Position numbers and translations under genes: made by a program. A stretch of DNA of 53,118 nt, filler included, from Basidioascus undulatus (lineage: Eukaryota), in assembly GCA_000826855.1 (NCBI GenBank). It is 4 parts of 4 records of this genome, joined end to end, with 100 filler letters (N's around TTAATTAATTAA, not from the genome) between each part and the next. Parts side by side here need not be neighbours in the genome. Positions count along the whole stretch, not along the records: positions 26,615 to 39,819 come from JTLS01000832.1; 3 more parts are not named here. One strand, 5' to 3'. Below are positions 7,516-39,919 of the stretch, piece after piece. Under the pieces are notes generated by a model. The model was not told where the DNA came from. It saw nothing but the letters and a program-made list of their open reading frames with translations, and made no database searches. How positions within the stretch are numbered: position 1 is the stretch's first letter; every line of letters begins with the position of its first letter.

Positions 7516-10500
7516 TTAGGCGTGAGCCTTGGCCTCGGCGGGGACGAACCTGCGGAGCGGCGGAGATCAGGAAACAGTGGAGAGAGGGGAGAGAGAGCGC
7601 GGAAAGGGACTCACTCCTTCCAGGAGCGCACCTCCGAGGGAATCCGGCCCTCGACGTAGCCCTCAAGACCGCCCTCGGGGATCTTCTTCGCCAGCGCCGA
7701 GACGAAGAGCCTGATAGGAGAGTGAATGGCGTAAGTCATAAAGAATAAAAGGAAGGAAGCTGCAAATAGCACGTACTCCGCCAACCGGGCGTTGTTAATC
7801 AGGGGCAGACCGAAGTCGACACTGTGGAAGGCGCCGCTCGTAAGCCGACGATGTTCCCCAGAAGGGCGAAGAGAAGAGAGATAAACGCGCCAGTTCCGGC
7901 GAGCGACGTAGTCCTCGTCGAGCGTGTCGCGGCCGCGGCTCTTGGCGAGGTTGATGACGCACTGGATCTCGTACTCCTCAAAGACCTCGCGGAGCTTGCG
8001 CTTGTCCTTGGTGGGGAAGAAGATGCGCTTGCACGTCACGTAGTCGAGCGAGTTGAGGAAGCGCTCGACGTCCGGGTTCGAGCAGTACAGCTTGAAGCCG
8101 AGGTTGATCAGCTTGCGCGCGACCGACGCCATCTCGGGCTTGGCGATGTCGCCGCCGATCAGGATGCCCTTGCCCGCCTTGGGCACGCGGAAGCCGTTGG
8201 TCGACAGCAGCGACGCCCAGTACGCCTCCTCGACCGTGTTGCCGAACGACGCGACCTCGCCGGTAGACGCCATCTCTGCGGGATACCGAAAAGGTCACGT
8301 CAGCTCCTCGTTCATTGCAGTCCATCTCAAGCACTGTTGAACACGCACCGACGCCAAGGAAGGGGTCCGCGCCCGCGAGACGAGTCCACGAGAACTGCGG
8401 GACCTTGATCGCAACGTAGTCGCGCTTCTCCTTCATGAGGTCGACCGGCGCGGGAACGTTCTGACCGACGATCGCGGCGGTCGCGACGTCGATGAAGTTG
8501 GTACCGAGCACCTTAGAGACGAAGGGGAACGAACGCGAAGCACGAAGGTTGCACTCGATGACCTTCAGCTCCGCAGGCTCGTCGCCGACGGGCGGCTTGC
8601 GGATGATCTGCATGTTGAAGGGACTGCAAACCCACCACGATATATTAGCCGGCGCCAAAAACCAAGCCGTTGGTAAAAAACGTACCCAGAGATCTCGAAC
8701 GCCTTCGCAACCTTCTCCGCGATGACCTTGAACCGGTCAAGGTCGCCCTCGGAGAGCGAGAAGGGGGGCAGGACGAGGGTGGCGTCGCCGGAGTGAACGC
8801 CGGCGTTCTCGACGTGCTCAGACACGGCGTGGACGAGCAGCTGGCCATTGTGCGCGACGGCGTCGACATCGATCTCCTGCGCGTTGTCGATGAACTGGGT
8901 GATGACGACCGGGTGGTCGGGCGAGACCTCCGCTGCCGCGGAGAGGTTGTGCTCGAGCGTGGACTCATCCCAGACGACGTTCATCGCCGCACCGGAGAGG
9001 ACGTAGGACGGGCGGATGAGGACGGGATAGCTGTGTGGCATCATCCCAACCTTCAGCTTCCTGGGTGTCACGAAAGTCCCCCTGATTTCGCTTCGACGCA
9101 CCCAACCTTCGCCGCGAACGCCTTAGCGTCATCGAGCGTCTTGGCCTCCGTCCACGCGGGCTGGTCGACGCCGATCGAGTCAAGGACAGACGAGAACTTG
9201 TGGCGGTCCTCGGCCATGTCGATCATCTCGGGGTCCGTGCCGAGGACCTTGACGCCAGAGCGCTTCAGGCGGAGCGCGATGTTCTGCGGGAGCTGGCCTG
9301 AAAAAGCACACCAAATCGCTTTTGTAAGTGGGTGATGAAACTGATAGGGGAAGGGAGAACGCGCAACGCACCACCGACAGAAACGATAACGCCCTCGGCG
9401 CCCTCGAGCTCGTAGATGTCCATCACGCGCTCCCAGCCGAGCTCCTCGAAGTAGAGGCGGTCCGCCTCGTCGAAGTCGGTCGAGACCGTCTCAGGGTTGT
9501 ACTGTCCTCCTCAGTCCAAATGAGCACCGTTTTCAAAGGGAGAAGAGCTCGAGGAGGCGCATGAAGAACGCACGTTGATCATGACGGTCTTCTTGTCCAT
9601 GCCGCGGACCGCACGCGCGCACGTCACGGCGCACCAGTCGAACTCGACGGACGAGCCAATGCGGTAGACGCCCGAGCCGAGGACCATCGTGCCCTTGTCG
9701 CCGAACTCGAGGTCGTGCTCAGAAGCGTTGTACGTTGTGTAGAGGTAGTTGGTATGGGCGGGGTACTCGGCCGCAAGCGTATCGATGCGCTTGACGAACG
9801 GCGTGACGCATGCGGCCTTGCGCGCCGCGCGGACGGCGTCCTCGCTCGCGCCCGTCAGGTCCGCGATCTGCGTGTCCGAGAAGCCCATCTGCTTCGCCTT
9901 GCGGAGGATGGGCTCGCCGAGCTTCTCCAGGCCGCCCGCGGCGCGCAGCGCCTTGTGCAGGGCGACGATATTGTCGAGCTTGTAGAGGAACCACTTGTCG
10001 ATCTTGGTCAGGTCGTGGAGCTTGTCGACGGAGTAGCCCTCGTTGAGCATCGCATGCGCGATCGCGAACAGGCGGCGATCCGTCGGGACGCGGAGGGCCT
10101 CGTCGAGGTCCTCAGGCTTCCAGTAGGCCTCGAACCCGGCGAAGCGCGGGTCGACCTGGCGCACGGCCTTCTGGAGCGACTCCTCAAACGTCCGCCCGAT
10201 TGCCATGACCTCGCCGACGGACTTCATCGACGACCCGACGTCGCGCTGCACATACTGGAACTTGGCAAGGTCCCACTTCGGGATCTTGGTCACGATGTAG
10301 TCGAGCGAGGGCTCGAAGCACGCCGTCGTCGTCTTCGTCACCGCGTTCGGCAGCTCCGGGAGAGTGTGGCCGAGCGCGATCTTCGCCGCCGTGTACGCGA
10401 GCGGGTAGCCGGTCGCCTTGGACGCGAGGGCGCTGTGGCGAGGGAGGACGGAATATGAATGTGCGAGGTCAGGAGAAATGTGGCAGGAGGGAGACGTACG

Positions 10501-11976
10501 AGGAGCGCGAAAGACGGGCGTTCATCTCGATGACCATGTACTCCATGCTGTTGGGGTTGAGCGCGTACTGGACGTTGCACTCGCCGACGACACCAACGTG
10601 ACTGTCAGTTTGATCACAATATGAGTAATTTCGTCTGGCGCGGTCTGCTGGGAGAGGAAGACGTACCGGACGATCTTGATAGCCGCGGATCGGAGCATGT
10701 GGTACTCGGCGTCGGTGAGAGTCTGGGACGGGGCGACGACGATCGAGTCACCGGTGTGGATGCCAAGCGGGTCAAAGTTCTCCATGTTGCACTGTTCCAG
10801 CCCAATCCACCCGCACCCATCACAGGATCAGTCTCCCATCCTGTCTCCCCCACCCGGAGTACCAAACGAGATACTGGACGCACGCAGATGATGACGTTGT
10901 CCGCGGCGTCACGGACGACCTCATACTCGACCTCCTTCCACCCCTTGAGCGACTTCTCGATGAGCACCTGCGGGCTGAGCGAGAGTGACTTGGCCGCGAG
11001 GTCGCGGAGCTCGTCCGCGTTGCTCGCGAAGCCGGAGCCGAGACCGCCGAGGGAGAAGGCCGAACGGAGAATGACCGGGTAGCCGATCTTCTCGGCGGCC
11101 TGCAGAGCAGCAGGAACGGTGCCGACGGCGACGGAGTGGGCAGCGGGAATGTCGATCTCTGGTTGATTGACCCAGAGATAAGCTTATCTCTGCGGGCGAG
11201 GAGGCGAGGAGGAAGGAAGACGCACCGTTCAGGGCCTGGACGAAGAGGTCGCGGTCCTCGGAGACCTCGAGGGTGCGGATGGGGGTGCCGAGGACCTGGA
11301 CGCCGAGGCGGTCAAGGACGCCCATCTTGTCGAGGGCGATGCCGACGTTGAGCGCGGACTGGCCGCCGAAGGTGAGGAGGATGCCGTCCGGCCGCTCCTT
11401 CTCGAGGATGGACGCGACGTAGTCGGGCGTGACGGGGAGGAAGTAGATCTCGTGCGCGAGGTGGTGCGAGGTCTGGATTGTCGCGATGTTGGGGTTCACG
11501 AGGATGACCTCGATCCCGGATTCTCGGAGCGCCTTGATGGCTTGCGAGCCTGGAGGTGCAGAAGAGGGTCAGCGGTCCGCTTGGCGCCAGCCTCTCCTGG
11601 TCCATTGCTCTTCACCAGCAACCTCTTCCCACTCTCCCTAGACCCGCAAGAGAATCTGCGACTCACCAGAGTAGTCAAACTCTCCCGCCTGGCCAATGCT
11701 CAACCCGCCCGACCCGACTACCAGCACCCGCTTGACATCGGGCTTAGGGATCTTGGGGAGGACCTTTGCGGATATCCGGCGCGCAAGGTCCGAGGGAGAG
11801 TTGAGCTCGCCGCTGCCGATCACGGAAGAGGCCGCGACGGCGGGGGCGGGGCGGGAGGTGTGGAGGAGGCGGGAAGATGCAGAGGCGGCGGGGCGCTGCT
11901 GCTGGAGGATGGAGGACGAGATGCGGCGGGCACCGGCGGCGGGCGCGCGGGCGGTCAAGAGTGATGAGCGGAACAT
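7516..11976 (-). CDS. CPA2: Carbamoyl-phosphate synthase large subunit, arginine-specific, mitochondrial
   Basis: Presequence [18 protein letters not shown]; motifs [95 protein letters not shown]-terminal MGS-like region ending [15 protein letters not shown]. No glutaminase, DHOase or ATCase domains, so not URA2. Confidence 0.97.
7822..7890 (-). other. GC-AG intron in CPA2
   Basis: CGGAACTG|gcgcgt...ccacag|TGTCGAC restores ARRNCVDFG. Confidence 0.8.
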
Positions 11977-13208: not shown

Positions 13209-13308
13209 NNNNNNNNNNNNNNNNNNNNNNNNNNNNNNNNNNNNNNNNNNNNTTAATTAATTAANNNNNNNNNNNNNNNNNNNNNNNNNNNNNNNNNNNN
13301 NNNNNNNN
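13209..13308. other. Artificial contig linker N44-TTAATTAATTAA-N44
   Basis: Spacer with stop codons in all six frames, flanked by 44 N each side; identical at three places. Confidence 0.98.
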
Positions 13309-17810: not shown

Positions 17811-17890
17811 GGCGAGATGGCCGAGCGGTCTAAGGCGCCAGACTAAGGATCTGGTCCGAAAGGGCGTGGGTTCGAATCCCACTCTCGTCA
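17811..17890 (+). tRNA. tRNA-Leu, anticodon AAG, intronless
   Basis: GGCGAGA/TCTCGTC acceptor stem, A box TGGCCGAGCGG, anticodon arm CCAGA-CTAAGGA-TCTGG, long variable arm, B box GGTTCGAATCC, TTTT at 17895-17898. Confidence 0.96.
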
Positions 17891-17905
17891 CAAATTTTGT
17901 TCCCC

Positions 17906-26514: not shown

Positions 26515-26614
26515 NNNNNNNNNNNNNNNNNNNNNNNNNNNNNNNNNNNNNNNNNNNNTTAATTAATTAANNNNNNNNNNNNNNNNNNNNNNNNNNNNNN
26601 NNNNNNNNNNNNNN
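26515..26614. other. Artificial contig linker N44-TTAATTAATTAA-N44
   Basis: Same spacer as at 13209. Confidence 0.98.
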
Positions 26615-30070: not shown

Positions 30071-30454
30071 CTAAGGAATGTGTGGGTGTCAGAAAACATT
30101 TCGTGTGTGAGGGTGTGCAGGGCAGCCCACTCTGCAGCTGTATACCGCGGGTTCTCCCTCAGCCTGCTCTGCCGCTATAGAGGGGCGTGACTGGCCAAGC
30201 CGGACCTACTCACTTTCCTGTCAGCCTAAATAATGTTTGCAATCGGCTGCTCTGATGTTGACAGGCACAGATCTCACAACGGCCACGCAGTGGGTAAGGA
30301 TATGGCAATGCGGTGCTCTGGTAACAAAGGGACGGAAGAGCGAAGGTGCCTAACATGCGGTGAAGGTTAAAGAGACGTTATGTGCGAGTACAAAAATGCA
30401 ATGGATGCGTGAAGTCAATAACGAGATGATTGCGATGTGTGTATATTGTTCTAT

Positions 30455-33400
30455 TCAAAGAGCAGCCTGCCAGCCAGTGAAGGAAGGAAAGAACGTCCAA
30501 TGTCAGGACCGTCGCAGAGCAGGAAAAGCAGCAAAGGACTTATGTGTAGATGGTCGCAAGGGCGGTGTCATCCTGCGCCTGCTGGATGAGCTCGGCCACG
30601 TTCTGCTGAACGCTGAGCGTGGGCGAGAGCTTGAGCGAGACCGACATGAGCGCGCGATCCGCTTGTTCGCTGGCTGGCCCGCTGTCTGGATCCATAGCAT
30701 CGGCCGTGGTGCGGTCGAGCGCGCCATCTCCAGTTTCGCTCTGCATGCGGAGGAGCTTGAGAGGATTTGCCGTCCTAAAGAGATAGCGAGAGTGAGTGTC
30801 GTGGCCTTCAGGTGAAACTTGAAAGAACGTTCACCAAGTGTGTAGGGGATCAGCGCGGAAAACTTCCAGCACAGTCATGATGATCTCCGCAGAGTCGCGC
30901 AGGACGCGCAGCGTCTCCTCCGCGCAGCGCGTGAAAACGCCCGCGACGCCTGAGCTGCCCATGCCGTCGACGATGTCGCGGGTAAGACGGAAGGGTACGA
31001 GCTCGGGGATCGGCAAAAGGCGGCCCTACGGCAGATGAACCCATGTGAGCTCGCCTGAGGCGAAAAAGAAAGGCTACAGGAAGTACCTGGTCGAACGCGA
31101 TTCCGAGGTCGATATGGACGACCTCGCCGCTGACCTTGTCCATCAAGATGTTGGAGACGTGACGATCGCCGAGGCCCAGGATGTGCCCGACGATGGAAGT
31201 GACGGCGACGCTACGCGAGTAGTTGAGGCGCATAGCGAACCATGTCGTCGGCAGCTTGTGGTTCTCGGAGAAGAAGTGACGCAGAACGGGCTGGATGTTC
31301 TGCTTGACCTCGAGCCAGGCTCGAAGCTTCTCGGCGGGAGACGCGCTGCTGTCGGTCTGCTTCGCCTTGATGTGGTTTCGCGCTTGGAGGGGCGTCCAGT
31401 CCTTCGGCCGATACCTGTGGGAAACTGTCAATCCGGTGTTTCAAACCAACAACCTTTCGAGCATCGTCACACTCACCTCGGGTGCGCTGCTAACAACCAT
31501 TCGTTCATAGCCATGGTATTCTCGACGAATTCCAGGACGCCAGCCTGCGACGCCAGCGGGATGACCTTGTAGGTCCGGACGTGAAGCGATCGGCGGCGAG
31601 TCTGGCGGTCGCGCTCGAGGAGCGAGTTGACGAGCCCGAAGACCTGCTCCATGACGGCGTCTTGCCGAAGATCGTCCTCGCCCTTGAACTGTAAATGGGA
31701 AGCAGGCATAAGTCCCTGGCCGTCGCAGAACGTTCAAAGTGGTGACAACGCACCAGTTGCTTGTACCGCTTTCCAGTCGATGATATACAGTCGATGATGC
31801 GCGGGACGTGCAGCCCGCCAGCAAGGGTGAAGGTATCGGCGTAGCGCCGGATTGTCGGCACGTCCGCGTACTGGCCGGTCCTGTCGATTGGGAGCGTATC
31901 GGTGATGACGGGGACGGGTACGTCGCGGACGCGCTTGAGCTTGATGTCGTCGAGCAGGGGATGAGGACCGCTTTTGAGGGCGCCTCTCGAGCTCCGCGCG
32001 ACTTCCTTTCGGTCGTGCAGCTTGAGCATGGCGAACTGGATGTAGGCCTGACAGAGCGCCTCGAGCGCTCTGACCTTCTGCGTCAGCCGCTCCTGGCTTT
32101 GGACGCGGGCGAAGAGGTCCACCGCCGCTTGGGCTCGGCCCGCCTGCGAGGCAGAGCCGTCGGGACCGCGCGAGGCGCGGCGCGACTTGCTGCTCGCCAG
32201 TGTCGGCCCGGACTGGCCTTGACGGAGAGCATACACATGGTAGAGCGTATGGAACGGGTGATCGACGCAGAGGCGGTAGAGGAGCGCCTGGAGGGCGTGC
32301 TGGAACTTGGCGGAGCCGGCGCTCGCTTTCGACAAACGAGCGCACAGCTGGTGGGCGAGGAAGACGAACTTGTGCGTCGGTACGGCGTCGAGCAACGCAG
32401 CCATGGTCTCGTTGACTTCGTCGTCCGCCGAAGAGAGCCAGAGCGAAATGAGGCGGATCGCGTCGTCGTCGTGCGCGTCCGAGAACGAGAGGCACTTCGC
32501 ATACATCTCGAGCGCGCGCCCAAGGAAGGTAGCCATCTCGTCCTCGTGCTTGTCGAGCTTCTCGCGGTCCAGATCGCGCAGGCGAGCCGCCTTCTGGCGC
32601 GCGCTGTGGATGCTGTTGTAGTCTGCGCCAGGCGTGGACGCGCGCTGGCTGAGGCGGGCGTCGGCGTCCTTGATCTCCTTGTTCTTCAGCTCGTAGTACA
32701 AGCGAAGACGGTCGAACTCGGGCGACTTCTTGAGGAGGCGGTACTGCTTTTCCGCGAAGACGGCGTATTGATGGAAGACGGTCGCGTCAGCCTCTTCGAC
32801 GACGCCCGACGACGCGAGGAACTCGCTGGCCGGCCCGAAATACTTCGTCTCGATGTCGATGGCCCGCTCGAGACGAGCAGCGGAGAGCCAGTCGGCCTGA
32901 TCGCGACACCGAGTCAGTTGGAAGCGCGACCGGAGCAAAACAACGAAGCAGACGTTACCAAGCGCGCTGTAAGTAACGCTTGGGCAGACCCCGCGTTCGT
33001 CGACCGCTTCTTATTGTCCTTGCTGCGCCTGAGCTCGTCCTTTGGAAGCAGATTACGGAGGAGAGAGATCGCCATCGTGCGCTCGTTCTGAAGCCACAAA
33101 ACGTTCGCGAACTCCTCCTCGACGCGCGCTGCGGGTAGACGTGCGGCGACTTCGACGCGCTGAGCCAGCGTGATGGCATTGAGCGCTGCTTGCGGATTGC
33201 CCTGCTCGCGCGCGCTGCTGCTGAGGCGGAGAAGACAGGCGCGCTCGATCTGCGCTGCTTGTGCGCCTCGGGACGTCGGCGTGTCGCCGAGCTGCTCGCG
33301 TAGCTCGCGGTCCTTGACGGCGCGCAGCAGCGACATACGAGTGGCCAGGACCTTCTCGAGGTCGGGGAAGCTATAAAATGATGCTCGAATCATCAGCAAA

Positions 33401-36400
33401 GGATACTTTAAATAATCAAGAGACGGCACAGACGCACTCCAGAGCGGTCGACACTTGGCTCAGGTCATCGGACAGCTCGCCGTCCAACGGATGAGCTTCT
33501 CCGCCATTGGCCCAGCGCAGAACCTCGCGCAATGCCGCGAGATTGCGAGTGACTTGTCGAAGCTCCGTCGCGCTCTCCTGCCCGATGCTGGCGAATCGGA
33601 GCGTCTCCGCGCGAACCGAAGACTTGATCATGCCCTGGATAGCGGCGCCGTCGCGCTCGCGATGAATAGCGCGGAGCGCCGAGTAAAGCGTGATGTCGGG
33701 TTCAGTGGACTCGAGCGTGTCGACGGGAAGGTCCCACGTCTCCGTACGCCAGCCGAGCTCGTAGCTGACGCCGGAAGCGGACCCAGCGGACGACTTCGCC
33801 TGGAGGAACGACACTGCTAGCTTGTCGAAGCCGAACGAGTGCAGCGAGTGCACAATATCGAGCGCGGCGTCCGCAGCGCCGCTGGCCGCGATGCCGGACT
33901 CGTAGTCGGATCCATGGTACTCGAACGCGCGTCGCCACTGGCCCTCGTGGTGCAGACGGCGGACGATCGACGAGCGCACGTCGCGGCTCTGAATGCTGTA
34001 GAAGCCGTCTGGATCGTCGATGTTGGCGTAGATGTCGTACAGCACGTCCTCGCTCGCCTTCTGCTGATCGGCGTACCGCGCCGCGGCGTCGCGGCCCTCG
34101 TCCTCGTTCGCGAGCTCGAGAAAGAGAAGCGCCGTCGTGTACGCGCCGATGTTGGCCGCGCTTCGAGCGAGAAGAAAGAAGTCGATGGCGAGCCAACGGT
34201 TATAAGCGAGAGGGTCGTCCGACTTGGGCGGGACATGATGGCGAAGATGGAGGAGGACGTCGATGACGGCGCGCACGCAGTCCGGCGCAGCGCCTGGGTC
34301 GGAGAGCAGGCTGGAGAAGTAGCTCGAGAGGATGGAGCGAGGTCCAGAAGCGTCGAAATGTTGTGCGTGAAAAAGCTCATAGGAGAGAAGGGCTTGGACG
34401 AGGTGCACGAGAACGCGGCTGGCGAAGCTCGTAGTTGAACCGATGAGAGGGCGGAGGTACGCGTAAAAAGGCTCGATCTCGCCCAGAAAGTCGGCGAACA
34501 GCGCCGCCAGTCGGCGGATCCAGGACTCGAACACTCGCGCATCGGCAATCCACGCCTAGCAAGTAGAGAAGTCAACCGCAGCACAGGAGATCGGCGACAA
34601 TAAGAAATGTACTTCAGACTCGATAAGTCCCGCTAGACTCGCGACTTCCCTCGCGGGTGGTTCAGGCGGAGAGGCCACGGCTTGTACTTTGACGAGCTCC
34701 TTCTGAATCCCTTCCGGCCATCCAGGGGCGGCCAGAAGTCCGGACGTGGACGTGATGACGCAGCGCAGAGTGCGGTACGCGCCTTCCGTCTTCACGAGGT
34801 CGTCGCTGCGAAGCATGTCGACGAGGACTTGGACGAAAGGCATCTTGAGGCGTACGTCGGCGTCGTTCGGCTCGGCAGCGCTCTTCGAGCCGCCACGGCG
34901 GCCGGAGCTCGAAGGCGCCGCCAGGACGGCGAGTGTGCGGATGTCGGGCGTGCGCAGCTTCGCGTCACAGAGGTGAACGAGCTCCACGAGAGCCTCGATG
35001 TCCGCATCGTCAGCCCGGAGCTCGTCTGCGCGTGGCAGCGCGGCCTTGAGGTGCCACGCGATCGTCGGTCCGTGCCGGATACGCTCGGTCTCGGAGGAGC
35101 GCACCATTGCATCGCGCAGGGCGCGGACAAGCAGGAACTTACTCGTTCGCATGCTCGACCTTGCGAGAACATCGGCGAACTCGTCAAGGTCGAGGCTGCC
35201 CGACTCCGCAAGACGGCCTTGCGGGGCGCGAGGCCAGTAGGGGAGAACGTCGCGCGCTTGCGACGCGAGCTCGTCGACATCGAGCAGCATGCCGACTCGG
35301 CCTTCAAGCCAGTCGAGCAGCTCGCGCCCGTGCTCGCTCAGCGCCGGATCGTCGCATCGGCTGTAGCTCGCCGCGGCGTTGGACGCGAGCGCGAGGATAT
35401 CTGGAAACTCGGGCAAGGGCGACTTGAGGGTGATGTAGAGGTCCACGGCCCAGCGCAAGACGTTGGCCGCGAACTCGGCAATATCCCGCTGCGCGTGCAG
35501 GACAGACGCGCCGTGGAGCAGCGTGCGGAGGATGACCGGGTCGCGACATGCGGAGGGGGAGAGAACGACGAGGAGACACAGAGCGTAGAGGTAGCGCAGC
35601 TGCTCGTTGACGATGGCGGTGGTGCCGACAAGGTTGATGAGCTGGTGGGAGATGTGGTAGACTGTCGGCTCGGCGAGCACGTTCTCGTACTGCGTCGAGA
35701 GCCAGTGGAGAGCCCGTACGACAACAGGGAGCGTGAACGACGGCCGCGAGACTTCGAAGACCTCAAACATGGCACCGTGACTGCGCCGCGTCAGCGACCG
35801 GTAAAGCTTCGCGGTCGCGCCGCCGTCCGTCATCGCGTCGAAGATGCCAAGGCTTTGCTCATCCGGCGGACGGCTCAAGGCGAGCATGTTGAGGGCGATC
35901 TCGTCGAGCGTGTCGCTGAGGAACTGCTCGGGATCGCACTGCGGATCGAGCGCGCGAAGCTGGTCGATGAGGTAGTCGAAAAGCTCTTGTGAGCCCCGGT
36001 TGTAGTCGCGCGAGCTCTCGTCCAGAACGCCGACGCCCGAGACGATCTGGCGAGCGAGGAGAAGCGGTAGGCAGTCGCGGAGGCCGTCGGCGTACGGCCG
36101 GCCGACCATCTTGCAGAGCTGCTGGAAAGCCTTGCGGTCGTCGAAGCCGAGCGCGACCGAACCGACTTGGCGAAAAGCTGCCTGCATCGCCGCCTTGCGC
36201 GAAGAGAAGCCGAGCGGAAGCGAGGGCAGGGCCGTGAAGTCGATGCTGTTCTCCCGGCACATCGAAGCCATCTGGCTCGCGAACGCGGTCCAAAGTCGGG
36301 CAGGCGAGTCGAGTCCAAGACGGCGAGATACGGCGACGGTGAGGGCGTGGACGTGCCCGTCGAGGCTGCCCTTGGTAGACGTGGTGATCTCGATGAGGTG

Positions 36401-39819: not shown

Positions 39820-39919
39820 NNNNNNNNNNNNNNNNNNNNNNNNNNNNNNNNNNNNNNNNNNNNTTAATTAATTAANNNNNNNNNNNNNNNNNNNNNNNNN
39901 NNNNNNNNNNNNNNNNNNN
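39820..39919. other. Artificial contig linker N44-TTAATTAATTAA-N44
   Basis: Same spacer as at 13209. Confidence 0.98.

What the first reader, a model, noticed from the sequence alone, without database searches (positions are those of the whole stretch)
30455..30560. AT-AC intron with a U2-like donor completes the Tel1/ATM FATC domain
Seen: the Tel1 frame stops at ...LATIYT-TAA. A 22-nt exon 67 nt downstream supplies GWQAAL*. The only in-frame join is AC|ATAAGT...CTGAC...CCTCAC|T. Sliding the junction gives no GT-AG, the nearby GT lies after the stop, and using the next AG loses the GW. Known: the terminal aromatic-x-G-W motif of FATC is conserved in and needed by PIKK kinases; U12 AT-AC introns start ATATCCTT; most Dikarya lack the minor spliceosome. 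Inference: both terminal G's are changed in a compatible way (A...C), so a single sequencing error is unlikely. This looks like a rare U2-spliced AT-AC intron. The donor ATAAGTCCTTT also carries a shifted TCCTTT, so it could be a converted U12 intron. Retention would give a FATC-truncated kinase, a possible splicing switch on DNA-damage and telomere signalling.
Basis: partly seen in the sequence, partly recalled or inferred. Interest (0 to 1): 0.8.

Follow-up and report, generated by a model that had tools for sequence, protein, structure and literature searches.

The report
AT-AC intron ending fungal Tel1 gene
The last intron of a basidiomycete fungus's Tel1/ATM DNA-damage kinase gene has the rare AT...AC ends instead of GT...AG; it is really spliced out, it looks like a job for the ordinary spliceosome, and gene finders would miss it.

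Summary
Confirmed. On the minus strand a Tel1/ATM gene reads ...LATIYT then TAA. A 67-nt intron (30543..30477) begins ATAAGT and ends CAC. The 22 coding bases after it (30476..30455) give GWQAAL plus a stop.

A spliced 2430-nt contig in public run X3 joins 30544 to 30476 exactly. It also removes five neighbouring GT-AG introns. Sliding the joint by its 3-base ambiguity gives no GT-AG. Genomic contigs of two other runs carry the window's bases unchanged. Nine relatives end in the same GWQAAL.

The donor matches the published /ATAAGT consensus of U2-type AT-AC introns, not the U12 /ATATCCTT. A CTGAC branch site lies 26 nt upstream of the 3' end, followed by a pyrimidine tract, as in the neighbouring introns. 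The organism is a basidiomycete, a group reported to lack the minor spliceosome. I could not test this here because no genome is held.

Verdict: a real U2-type AT-AC intron, a new member of a known rare kind.

New here: the intron lies 2 nt upstream of a GT-AG intron found in the Gly codon of GW in 23 of 80 related loci. It may have slid. The "converted U12" and "splicing switch" ideas have no support.

The parts
30544..30774 (-). Penultimate coding exon of Tel1/ATM. It holds the last base of a Trp codon, then TANPLK...LATIY, then the first two bases (AC) of the Thr codon. It carries the first part of FATC.
   Evidence: Spliced contig pieces and joints, junction placement, Pfam FATC positions 2-25 of 32, E 5.5e-06, translation.
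30477..30543 (-). The AT-AC intron: 67 nt, phase 2, 5'-ATAAGT...CAC-3'.
   Evidence: Skipped exactly in X3 contig record 3, joint 30476|30544, + strand ends GT..AT. It is the only placement of the four possible that resembles a known splice type.
30538..30543 (-). 5' splice site ATAAGT. It equals the U2-type AT-AC consensus. Positions +2 to +6 match GTAAGT.
   Evidence: Sequence; consensus from PMC5029451 passages.
30540..30542 (-). In-frame TAA, read only if the intron is retained. The product would then end ...LATIYT and lack GWQAAL.
   Evidence: Translation.
30502..30506 (-). Candidate branch site CTGAC, with the branch A at 30503, 26 nt upstream of the 3' splice site.
   Evidence: Motif scan of the intron. 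The five neighbouring introns have CTCAC, TTGAC, CTTAT or CTGAC at similar distances. Inferred, not mapped.
30477..30495 (-). Pyrimidine-rich tract ending in the 3' splice site CAC. The terminal AC is 30478-30477.
   Evidence: Sequence. 76% pyrimidines in the last 25 nt.
30455..30476 (-). Coding start of the terminal exon: T (third base of Thr), then GWQAAL, then TGA (30457-30455).
   Evidence: Sequence, spliced contig, identical hexapeptide at the end of 9 relatives.
30308..30454 (-). 3' untranslated part of the terminal exon, as far as the transcript contig reaches.
   Evidence: X3 record 3 begins at 30308. The true poly(A) site was not determined.
30775..30834 (-). Neighbouring GT-AG intron (60 nt, GTGAAC...TTTAG), phase 2 in a Trp codon.
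   Evidence: Joint in X3 contig, placement. L001-L003 show GT right after TG of the same Trp codon.
31026..31086 (-). GT-AG intron, 61 nt.
31415..31476 (-). GT-AG intron, 62 nt.
31689..31753 (-). GT-AG intron, 65 nt.
32897..32958 (-). GT-AG intron, 62 nt.
30835..31025 (-). Exon encoding the C-lobe of the PI3/PI4-kinase domain.
   Evidence: Pfam PI3_PI4_kinase E 2.5e-13, profile positions 177-239 of 241.

Best explanation
The last intron of this basidiomycete's Tel1/ATM gene (minus strand 30543..30477, 67 nt, phase 2) is a genuine AT-AC intron of the U2 (major-spliceosome) type. It is removed from the mRNA. Removal joins ...LATIY-T to GWQAAL-stop and so completes the conserved FATC tail.

Proposed mechanism (inferred): U1 and U6 recognise the donor through positions +2 to +6 (TAAGT, a perfect match). 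U2 pairs with CTGAC 26 nt upstream of the 3' end. The usual non-Watson-Crick contact between the first and last intron G's is replaced by the compatible A...C pair, which permits the second step.

Shown: the termini, the motifs and the spliced product. Inferred: which spliceosome does the work.
For: 1. X3 contig record 3 (2430 nt, depth 17) joins 30476|30544, skipping 67 nt. The + strand ends are GT..AT, which is AT..AC on the gene's strand. The same contig removes five neighbouring introns of 60-65 nt, all GT..AG on the gene's strand.
2. X3's depth in bins 30388-30481 (16.1) and 30482-30575 (5.8) equals what record 3 alone gives, so no X3 contig covers the intron. X1 and X2 each laid one unspliced genomic contig, with 0 differences over 30200-33000.
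3; none of the four joint placements is GT-AG or GC-AG. Only AT-AC carries a donor-like hexamer.
4. GWQAAL is the exact end of 9 relatives. The C-terminal profile scores 54.6 bits (positions 1-40) spliced against 38.3 bits (1-33) retained. Pfam FATC stops at profile position 25 of 32 in the unspliced frame.
5. U2 type: the donor ATAAGT equals the 'very strong /ATAAGT consensus' of known U2-type AT-AC introns and differs from /ATATCCTT (PMC5029451 passages). CTGAC at -26 and a 76% pyrimidine tail match the five neighbours.
6. All 11 other introns examined in the window are GT-AG: 5 supported by the transcript contig and 6 inferred by homology in Cpa2.
7. The organism is a basidiomycete. The best Cpa2 matches are 79-80% identical, the two top-ranked being Microbotryomycetes and other basidiomycetes following at 73-80%. 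The best named Tel1 matches are Tilletia, Parajaminaea, Testicularia, Acaromyces and Meira.
8. Surveys found no minor introns or snRNAs in Basidiomycota or Dikarya (PMC10639083 passages; PMC2846911 passages).
9. A first-base G-to-A change in U2 introns is rescued by a last-base G-to-C change in yeast and human, though less efficiently (PMC1557818 section 20).
Against: - Run X3 is on record only as 'DNA?' (guessed), not as RNA. That it is cDNA or RNA is my inference from its six exact intron removals and the absence of any intron-bearing contig.
- The evidence is one contig from one sample, and that sample may also be the source of the assembly.
- Contigs cannot show the strand, the share of unspliced RNA or rare isoforms.
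- The joint is ambiguous by 3 bases, so AT-AC is chosen by motif, not read directly.
- No genome is held, so the absence of U11, U12, U4atac and U6atac in this organism rests on literature about its phylum. The window itself holds only a tRNA.
- The branch point is predicted, not mapped.
- No relative's DNA with the same AT-AC intron was found. None of the 23 intron-bearing related loci is AT-AC.
Confidence: 0.85

Rival explanations
1. It is a U12-type (minor-spliceosome) AT-AC intron, or a freshly converted one, as the shifted TCCTTT in the donor might suggest.
For: The termini are AT-AC. TCCTTT lies at +6..+11, where U12 donors have it at +4..+9. No genome was available to exclude minor snRNAs.
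Against: The donor matches /ATATCCTT only at +1..+3 (consensus from PMC5029451). There is no TCCTTAAC-like branch site near the 3' end; the consensus and its 10-15 nt spacing are recalled, not from a call. The only TCCTT strings abut the 3' end, with their A at -2. CTGAC sits at -26 with a pyrimidine tract, which is the U2 layout. Basidiomycota and Dikarya are reported to lack minor introns and snRNAs. At this site other Dikarya have GT-AG U2-type introns. The three RTATCCTT motifs in the window fit the roughly 3 that my own arithmetic expects by chance. The one inside Tel1 lies within what reads as an ordinary GT-AG intron.
Confidence: 0.03
2. It is an ordinary GT-AG intron, and the A at 30543 and the C at 30477 are assembly or sequencing errors.
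For: The proposed ancestor differs from a canonical intron by just two bases. Both genomic runs may be sources of the assembly.
Against: Two specific, mutually compensating errors would be needed. Contigs of X1 (2014, depth 15) and X2 (2025, depth 46), from two studies, both show 0 differences over 2801 nt. A 151-nt soil-metagenome contig (X4 record 6, 30362-30509, 2 other letters) covers the acceptor, and no difference is listed there. That last point is weak, because it is one low-depth contig.
Confidence: 0.02
3. The joined form in X3 is not mRNA but DNA, such as a processed retrocopy or an intron-less allele, so splicing at AT-AC is not shown.
For: X3 is labelled 'DNA?' and no listed run is on record as RNA. 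The tool warns that joined forms found in DNA runs exist as DNA.
Against: A genomic library of the same sample as X2 should also hold the intron-bearing locus, yet no X3 contig covers any of the six introns (depth arithmetic). X1 and X2 each laid only the unspliced form. X3's contigs total 15.7 Mb in 36,764 records, against 34-35 Mb for the genomic runs, which is transcriptome-like. Even a retrocopy would record a past splice at these borders.
Confidence: 0.03
4. The weak AT-AC intron works as a regulated retention switch. Unspliced mRNA yields Tel1 lacking its last 6 residues, and this tunes DNA-damage and telomere signalling.
For: Retention gives an immediate in-frame TAA. The stop lies in the last intron, so the mRNA could plausibly escape decay (inference). 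Rescue by A...C is less efficient than G...G (PMC1557818 section 20). In yeast, tel1-deltaC, which lacks the last 10 residues, behaves like a null (PMC4591692 passages).
Against: There is no observation of a retained form. X3 shows only the spliced contig, although contigs drop rare variants. Nothing here speaks to condition dependence. Conservation in relatives could not be checked.
Confidence: 0.08

Closest known systems
U2-type ('type II') AT-AC introns of animals (SCN4A, SCN5A, TAF2 and others)
   Same: AT...AC termini with an otherwise canonical U2 donor. The published consensus /ATAAGT is identical to this donor (PMC5029451 passages). They are rare: 15 in human, 6 in mouse, 3 in fly (PMC1557818). 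Their splicing by the major spliceosome was shown for SCN4A and SCN5A.
   Different: This one is in a basidiomycete fungus, is 67 nt long, and sits in the last codons of a PIKK gene. Its spliceosome dependence was not tested. No orthologue with the same termini has been seen yet.
U12-type AT-AC introns (minor spliceosome)
   Same: The terminal dinucleotides only.
   Different: No /ATATCCTT donor, no U12 branch site near the 3' end, and a pyrimidine tract is present. The host phylum is reported to lack the machinery.
AT-AC splicing in Dikarya reported before: the S. cerevisiae RPL30 nested intron, Trichoderma RNA-seq junctions, hypothesised xylanase introns
   Same: AT-AC junctions in fungi without a minor spliceosome. 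RPL30 was confirmed by RT-PCR (PMC5029451). In Trichoderma longibrachiatum 69 of 14,305 junctions are AT-AC (PMC4324775). Fungal xylanase genes were hypothesised to carry such introns (PMC1557818).
   Different: The RPL30 case is a 1-2% side product with a donor unlike /ATAAGT. Here the AT-AC join is the only one seen, it is needed for the conserved protein end, and its donor is the textbook one.
Engineered first-base A / last-base C suppression in yeast and human U2 introns
   Same: The same pairing logic: a first-base G-to-A change is rescued by a last-base G-to-C change (PMC1557818 section 20; Parker and Siliciano 1993 as cited in PMC5029451).
   Different: Those are laboratory mutants. This is a natural allele fixed in a gene.
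The GT-AG intron in the Gly codon of the FATC 'GW' in other Dikarya Tel1 genes
   Same: It is also the last intron, it has a similar length (45-105 nt), and it leaves a tiny coding terminal exon of 20 nt against 22 nt here. It is found in 23 of 80 related metagenome loci. Read-through ends of Agaricomycete protein records imply it too.
   Different: It is phase 1 inside the Gly codon, with GT-AG ends. The window's intron is phase 2 in the codon before, 2 nt upstream, with AT-AC ends.

Membership tests
U2-type (type II) AT-AC intron | Intron begins AT and ends AC | tested here: met
   Sequence. It is the only motif-bearing placement of the observed joint.
U2-type (type II) AT-AC intron | Donor fits the U2 consensus apart from +1 (/ATAAGT), not /ATATCCTT | tested here: met
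   The donor is ATAAGT. Both consensus sequences come from PMC5029451 passages.
U2-type (type II) AT-AC intron | U2-style branch site and pyrimidine tract upstream of the 3' end | tested here: met
   CTGAC with its A 26 nt from the 3' end, and 76% pyrimidines in the last 25 nt. The layout is like the five GT-AG neighbours. The branch point itself was not mapped.
U2-type (type II) AT-AC intron | Actually excised at these borders | tested here: met
   Spliced contig record 3 of X3, joint 30476|30544. Caveats: the run type is guessed, and this is one contig from one sample.
U2-type (type II) AT-AC intron | Splicing depends on U1, U2, U4 and U6, not on U11, U12, U4atac and U6atac | not testable with these tools
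   No genome is held. I rely on reports that Basidiomycota and Dikarya lack the minor system.
U12-type AT-AC intron | Donor /ATATCCTT | tested here: not met
   ATAAGTCCT agrees at +1..+3 only.
U12-type AT-AC intron | TCCTTAAC-like branch site about 10-15 nt from the 3' end and no pyrimidine tract (feature recalled, not from a call) | tested here: not met
   There is no such motif at that distance. The TCCTT strings abut the 3' end, and a pyrimidine tract is present.
U12-type AT-AC intron | Minor snRNAs encoded in the genome | not testable with these tools
   No genome is held. The Rfam scan of the 53-kb window found only a tRNA, which says nothing about the rest of the genome.
Tel1/ATM (PIKK) | PI3/PI4-kinase catalytic domain | tested here: met
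   Pfam PF00454, E 2.5e-13, in exon 30835-31025.
Tel1/ATM (PIKK) | FATC domain at the extreme C-terminus ending aromatic-x-G-W-x4 | tested here: met
   Pfam FATC covers profile positions 2-25 of 32 in the unspliced frame. The full end appears only after splicing. The same hexapeptide ends 9 relatives.
Tel1/ATM (PIKK) | Closest named relatives are Tel1/ATM rather than other PIKKs | tested here: met
   The best full-length matches carry the name Tel1 in Tilletia, Testicularia, Acaromyces and Meira. The Coemansia hits are named tel1.
Tel1/ATM (PIKK) | FAT and N-terminal HEAT/TAN regions | tested here: inconclusive
   The long upstream ORFs gave no Pfam hit above cutoff. The only match was M-HEAT_ATR at 23.7 bits, below its cutoff of 27. 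The full gene model was not built.

The most novel reading that the evidence does not exclude
The AT-AC intron may be the old Dikarya last intron of Tel1 (GT-AG, phase 1, inside the Gly codon of GW) after a 2-nt slide, with the slide and the change of termini being one event. Suppose the ancestor read ...ACA G|GTAAGT...CAC AG|GC TGG. Loss of the two G's at the donor gives ...AC|ATAAGT. The new first A then pairs with the AC that lies 2 nt before the old AG. Splicing there restores exactly the same reading frame and protein. A later A-to-T change (now CAC|TG) would remove the competing AG. If so, this is a natural case of intron sliding, a process usually judged very rare, made possible by the A...C terminal pair.
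Probability: 0.3. Interest if true: 0.6.

Novelty: new member of a known kind. Interest (0 to 1): 0.38.

Why it matters
- Annotation. Gene finders that allow only GT-AG or GC-AG will end this Tel1 at ...IYT, without the residues that PIKKs need. In yeast, loss of the last 10 residues of Tel1 behaves like a null (PMC4591692 passages). Several public basidiomycete Tel1 records already appear mis-terminated at this tiny last exon.
- Splicing. A natural, apparently constitutive /ATAAGT...AC/ intron, in a fungus whose phylum is reported to lack a minor spliceosome, gives a clean setting for studying the first-last nucleotide interaction of the major spliceosome.
- Intron evolution. The 2-nt offset from a widespread GT-AG intron makes intron sliding directly testable, simply by sequencing the same spot in relatives.

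Tried and rejected
- No RNA holder listed. The transcript evidence comes from a run whose type is only guessed.
The Rfam scan of the window found only a tRNA.
- I sought relatives' DNA for the orthologous intron.
  - The metagenome scan gave 80 loci, none from a close relative. The best was 81% identical over a 64-aa exon and had no intron there.
  - The genome-contig scan (prokaryote genomes) gave none.
  - A search with the 77-aa last-exon product among proteins of similar length gave none.
  - So conservation of the AT-AC termini remains open.
- The search of earlier findings returned nothing in three look-ups.
- The first Tel1 search was limited to proteins of 666-2000 aa and found only three Coemansia hits at 28-30% identity. 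The exhaustive search replaced it.
- The subphylum is unresolved. Cpa2 is closest to Microbotryomycetes, while Tel1 is closest to Ustilaginomycotina. No tree was built.
- One search used an exon start one base off and gave a nonsense frame. One search corrected it.
- A U12-like RTATCCTT at 33406 on the minus strand, inside Tel1, was checked. By eye it lies within a GTGCGT...ATAG intron. Three such motifs in the window match the roughly 3 that my own arithmetic expects by chance.
- Literature.
  - (AT-AC plus basidiomycete genus names, any 2 of 6 terms) was too loose to be useful.
  - In one search none of the 12 listed papers on FATC, Tel1 or ATM holds 'AT-AC'. 413 papers matched at least 2 terms, and the rest were not seen.
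  - In some searches the two basidiomycete papers mention AT-AC only as an accepted junction class.
  - I found no paper describing an AT-AC intron in Tel1/ATM. Supplements were not consulted.
Full report
**What is in the sequence.**
The gene lies on the minus strand. Read that way, the frame runs ...[14 protein letters not shown] and then meets TAA at 30542..30540. The next bases are ATAAGTCCTTTG...GGTCCTGACATT...TTTCCTTCCTTCAC, followed by TGGCTGGCAGGCTGCTCTTTGA. If 30543..30477 (67 nt) is removed, AC joins T GGC TGG CAG GCT GCT CTT TGA. That gives Thr, then GWQAAL, then a stop at 30457..30455.

Pfam finds FATC in the unspliced frame, but only profile positions 2-25 of 32 (E 5.5e-06). It finds the end of the PI3/PI4-kinase domain in the exon before (E 2.5e-13). 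There are two small corrections: the acceptor reads CCTTCAC, not CCTCAC, and only the coding part of the last exon is 22 nt.

**Is the intron real?**
No run is on record as RNA. However, when four public runs were laid on 30200-33000, run X3 held a 2430-nt contig (record 3, depth 17) that is spliced. X3 is from the same sample as genomic run X2, and its type is only guessed as 'DNA?'. The contig joins 30476 to 30544, skipping exactly the predicted 67 nt. It also skips five further stretches of 60-65 nt. On the gene's strand all five are GT...AG.

X3's depth in the two bins around the intron (16.1 and 5.8) is exactly what record 3 alone contributes, so no X3 contig contains the intron. X1 and X2 each laid one unspliced contig. 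X3's contigs total 15.7 Mb, against 34-35 Mb for X1 and X2. I therefore read X3 as cDNA or RNA. This is an inference.

The joint is ambiguous by three bases. The four placements give AT..AC, CA..CA, AC..TC and CA..TT. Only the first carries splice-site motifs. X1 (2014) and X2 (2025), from different studies, match the window with 0 differences over 2801 nt. Either may be the source of the assembly. Even so, a double compensating error in both is unlikely.

**Is the product right?**
An exhaustive search with the 380-aa exon (31754-32893) listed 150 relatives. With 5 cluster members, 155 proteins were scanned, and 55 carry a FATC-like C-terminal match. Nine of those end in exactly GWQAAL. The named ones among them are Tel1 of Parajaminaea, Testicularia, Acaromyces and Meira.

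A profile of 44 orthologue C-termini aligns over all 40 positions with the spliced product (54.6 bits). With the retained form it aligns only to position 33 (38.3 bits).

**Which spliceosome?**
- The donor ATAAGT is identical to the 'very strong /ATAAGT consensus' of known U2-type AT-AC introns. It is unlike the U12 /ATATCCTT (PMC5029451 passages).
- CTGAC sits with its A 26 nt from the 3' end. The last 25 nt are 76% pyrimidine. The five neighbouring introns have CTCAC, TTGAC, CTTAT or CTGAC in similar places.
- The 11 other introns examined in the window are all GT-AG. Five are transcript-supported and six are homology-inferred in Cpa2. Five of the 11 donors are GTGCGT. The AT-AC intron has the best match to GTAAGT at +2..+6.
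- The 'shifted TCCTTT' is two bases out of register for a U12 donor. No U12 branch site lies near the 3' end; that consensus is recalled, not taken from a call.
- The organism is a basidiomycete. The best Cpa2 matches are 79-80% identical, the two top-ranked being Microbotryomycetes, with other basidiomycetes following at 73-80%. Its Tel1 is closest to Ustilaginomycotina.
- Two surveys report no minor introns or snRNAs in Basidiomycota or Dikarya (PMC10639083 passages; PMC2846911 passages).

I could not check this genome, because none is held. The mechanism I commit to is major-spliceosome splicing, with the first-last G...G contact replaced by A...C. That combination is known to rescue splicing in yeast and human U2 introns, though less efficiently (PMC1557818 section 20).

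**Comparison with relatives' DNA.**
The 64-aa kinase exon recovered 80 metagenome loci. Their states were as follows.
- 77 have a FATC match.
- 53 of those encode the whole tail without interruption. This includes the closest locus, L001 (81% identity).
- One contig is cut short.
- 23 have a GT-AG intron of 45-105 nt in phase 1 inside the Gly codon of GW (G|GT...AG|GNTGG), which leaves 20 coding nt.

Of the 23, 22 have the GWAA(Y/W/F)(A/V)-type or GWGAYA ends that I take to be ascomycete; this assignment is inferred from the tail only. One, L002, has a basidiomycete-like GWGPHF end. Public protein records of Gelatoporia, Fomitopsis and Schizophyllum, and two unnamed ones, stop following the family right after that Gly. 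They then read residues that fit GT-donor read-through, which suggests the same intron and a missed last exon.

None of the 23 is AT-AC, and none is in the window's phase. The window's intron therefore lies 2 nt upstream of a widespread Dikarya intron. The penultimate intron (phase 2 in Trp) appears to be shared: L001, L002 and L003 all show GT right after TG of that Trp codon.

**Origin (hypothesis).**
Two routes fit the data.
- (a) A phase-2 GT-AG intron changed both terminal G's. No such phase-2 intron has been seen anywhere so far.
- (b) The phase-1 intron lost the two G's across its donor, which turns ACAG|GTAAGT into AC|ATAAGT. The new first A then used the AC two bases before the old AG. 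This restores the same frame and the same residues. The present TG after CAC would be the mutated old AG.

Route (b) explains both the offset and the termini. However, intron sliding is regarded as very rare (PMC10639083 passage citing four studies). I give route (b) about 0.3.

**What is not supported.**
- A U12 origin. See the section on which spliceosome, above.
- A regulatory retention switch. Retention would indeed yield Tel1 lacking its last six residues, and yeast tel1-deltaC (last 10 residues) behaves like a null (PMC4591692 passages). No retained form was seen, and contigs cannot quantify it.

**Novelty.**
U2-type AT-AC introns are a known rare class: 15 in human, 6 in mouse, 3 in fly, with fungal xylanase cases hypothesised (PMC1557818). 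AT-AC junctions have also been seen in Dikarya before. Examples are the yeast RPL30 minor isoform (PMC5029451) and 69 of 14,305 junctions in Trichoderma (PMC4324775).

This is a new, well-formed member of that class in an essential motif of a conserved kinase. I found no paper linking AT-AC to Tel1/ATM. Only the listed rows of those searches were seen.

Noticed in passing
window 13209-13308, 26515-26614, 39820-39919: There are three pairs of 44-N blocks. Each pair is split by 12 real bases, and the pairs recur every 13,306 nt. They look like masking rather than assembly gaps. The third pair lies just upstream of the Tel1 5' region.
   Followed up: no
window 7614-11802 (-): An arginine-specific carbamoyl-phosphate synthase large chain (Cpa2) gene, 79-80% identical to its best matches, which are basidiomycete orthologues. 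Six homology-inferred introns of 62-92 nt are all GT-AG, and five of the six donors are GTGCGT.
   Followed up: partly
window 17811-17891 (+): A tRNA-Leu (anticodon AAG), the only Rfam match in the window.
   Followed up: yes
proteins P0133, P0156, P0230, P0212, P0187, P0262 (public Tel1 records): Tel1 protein records of Gelatoporia subvermispora, Fomitopsis serialis and Schizophyllum commune, and two unnamed ones, leave the family consensus right after the Gly before W. One of them reads through 30 extra residues. Phakopsora pachyrhizi leaves it one residue earlier. This fits gene models that missed or read through the tiny last exon.
   Followed up: partly
run X3, laid on window 30200-33000: A run labelled 'DNA?' holds a contig with six exact intron removals and no intron-bearing contig. 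It behaves as a transcriptome of the same sample as genomic run X2.
   Followed up: partly
run X4 (soil metagenome), window 30221-30312, 30362-30509, 31666-31987: 151-nt contigs with 1-2 differences show that this species or a very close strain occurs in a soil sample. One G>A difference is listed at 31913.
   Followed up: no
window 33371-33434 (-): An AGTATCCTTT string resembling a U12 donor lies inside what reads as an ordinary GTGCGT...TTTTATAG intron of Tel1. It is a chance match. This intron has no transcript support here, because it lies outside the stretch laid.
   Followed up: yes
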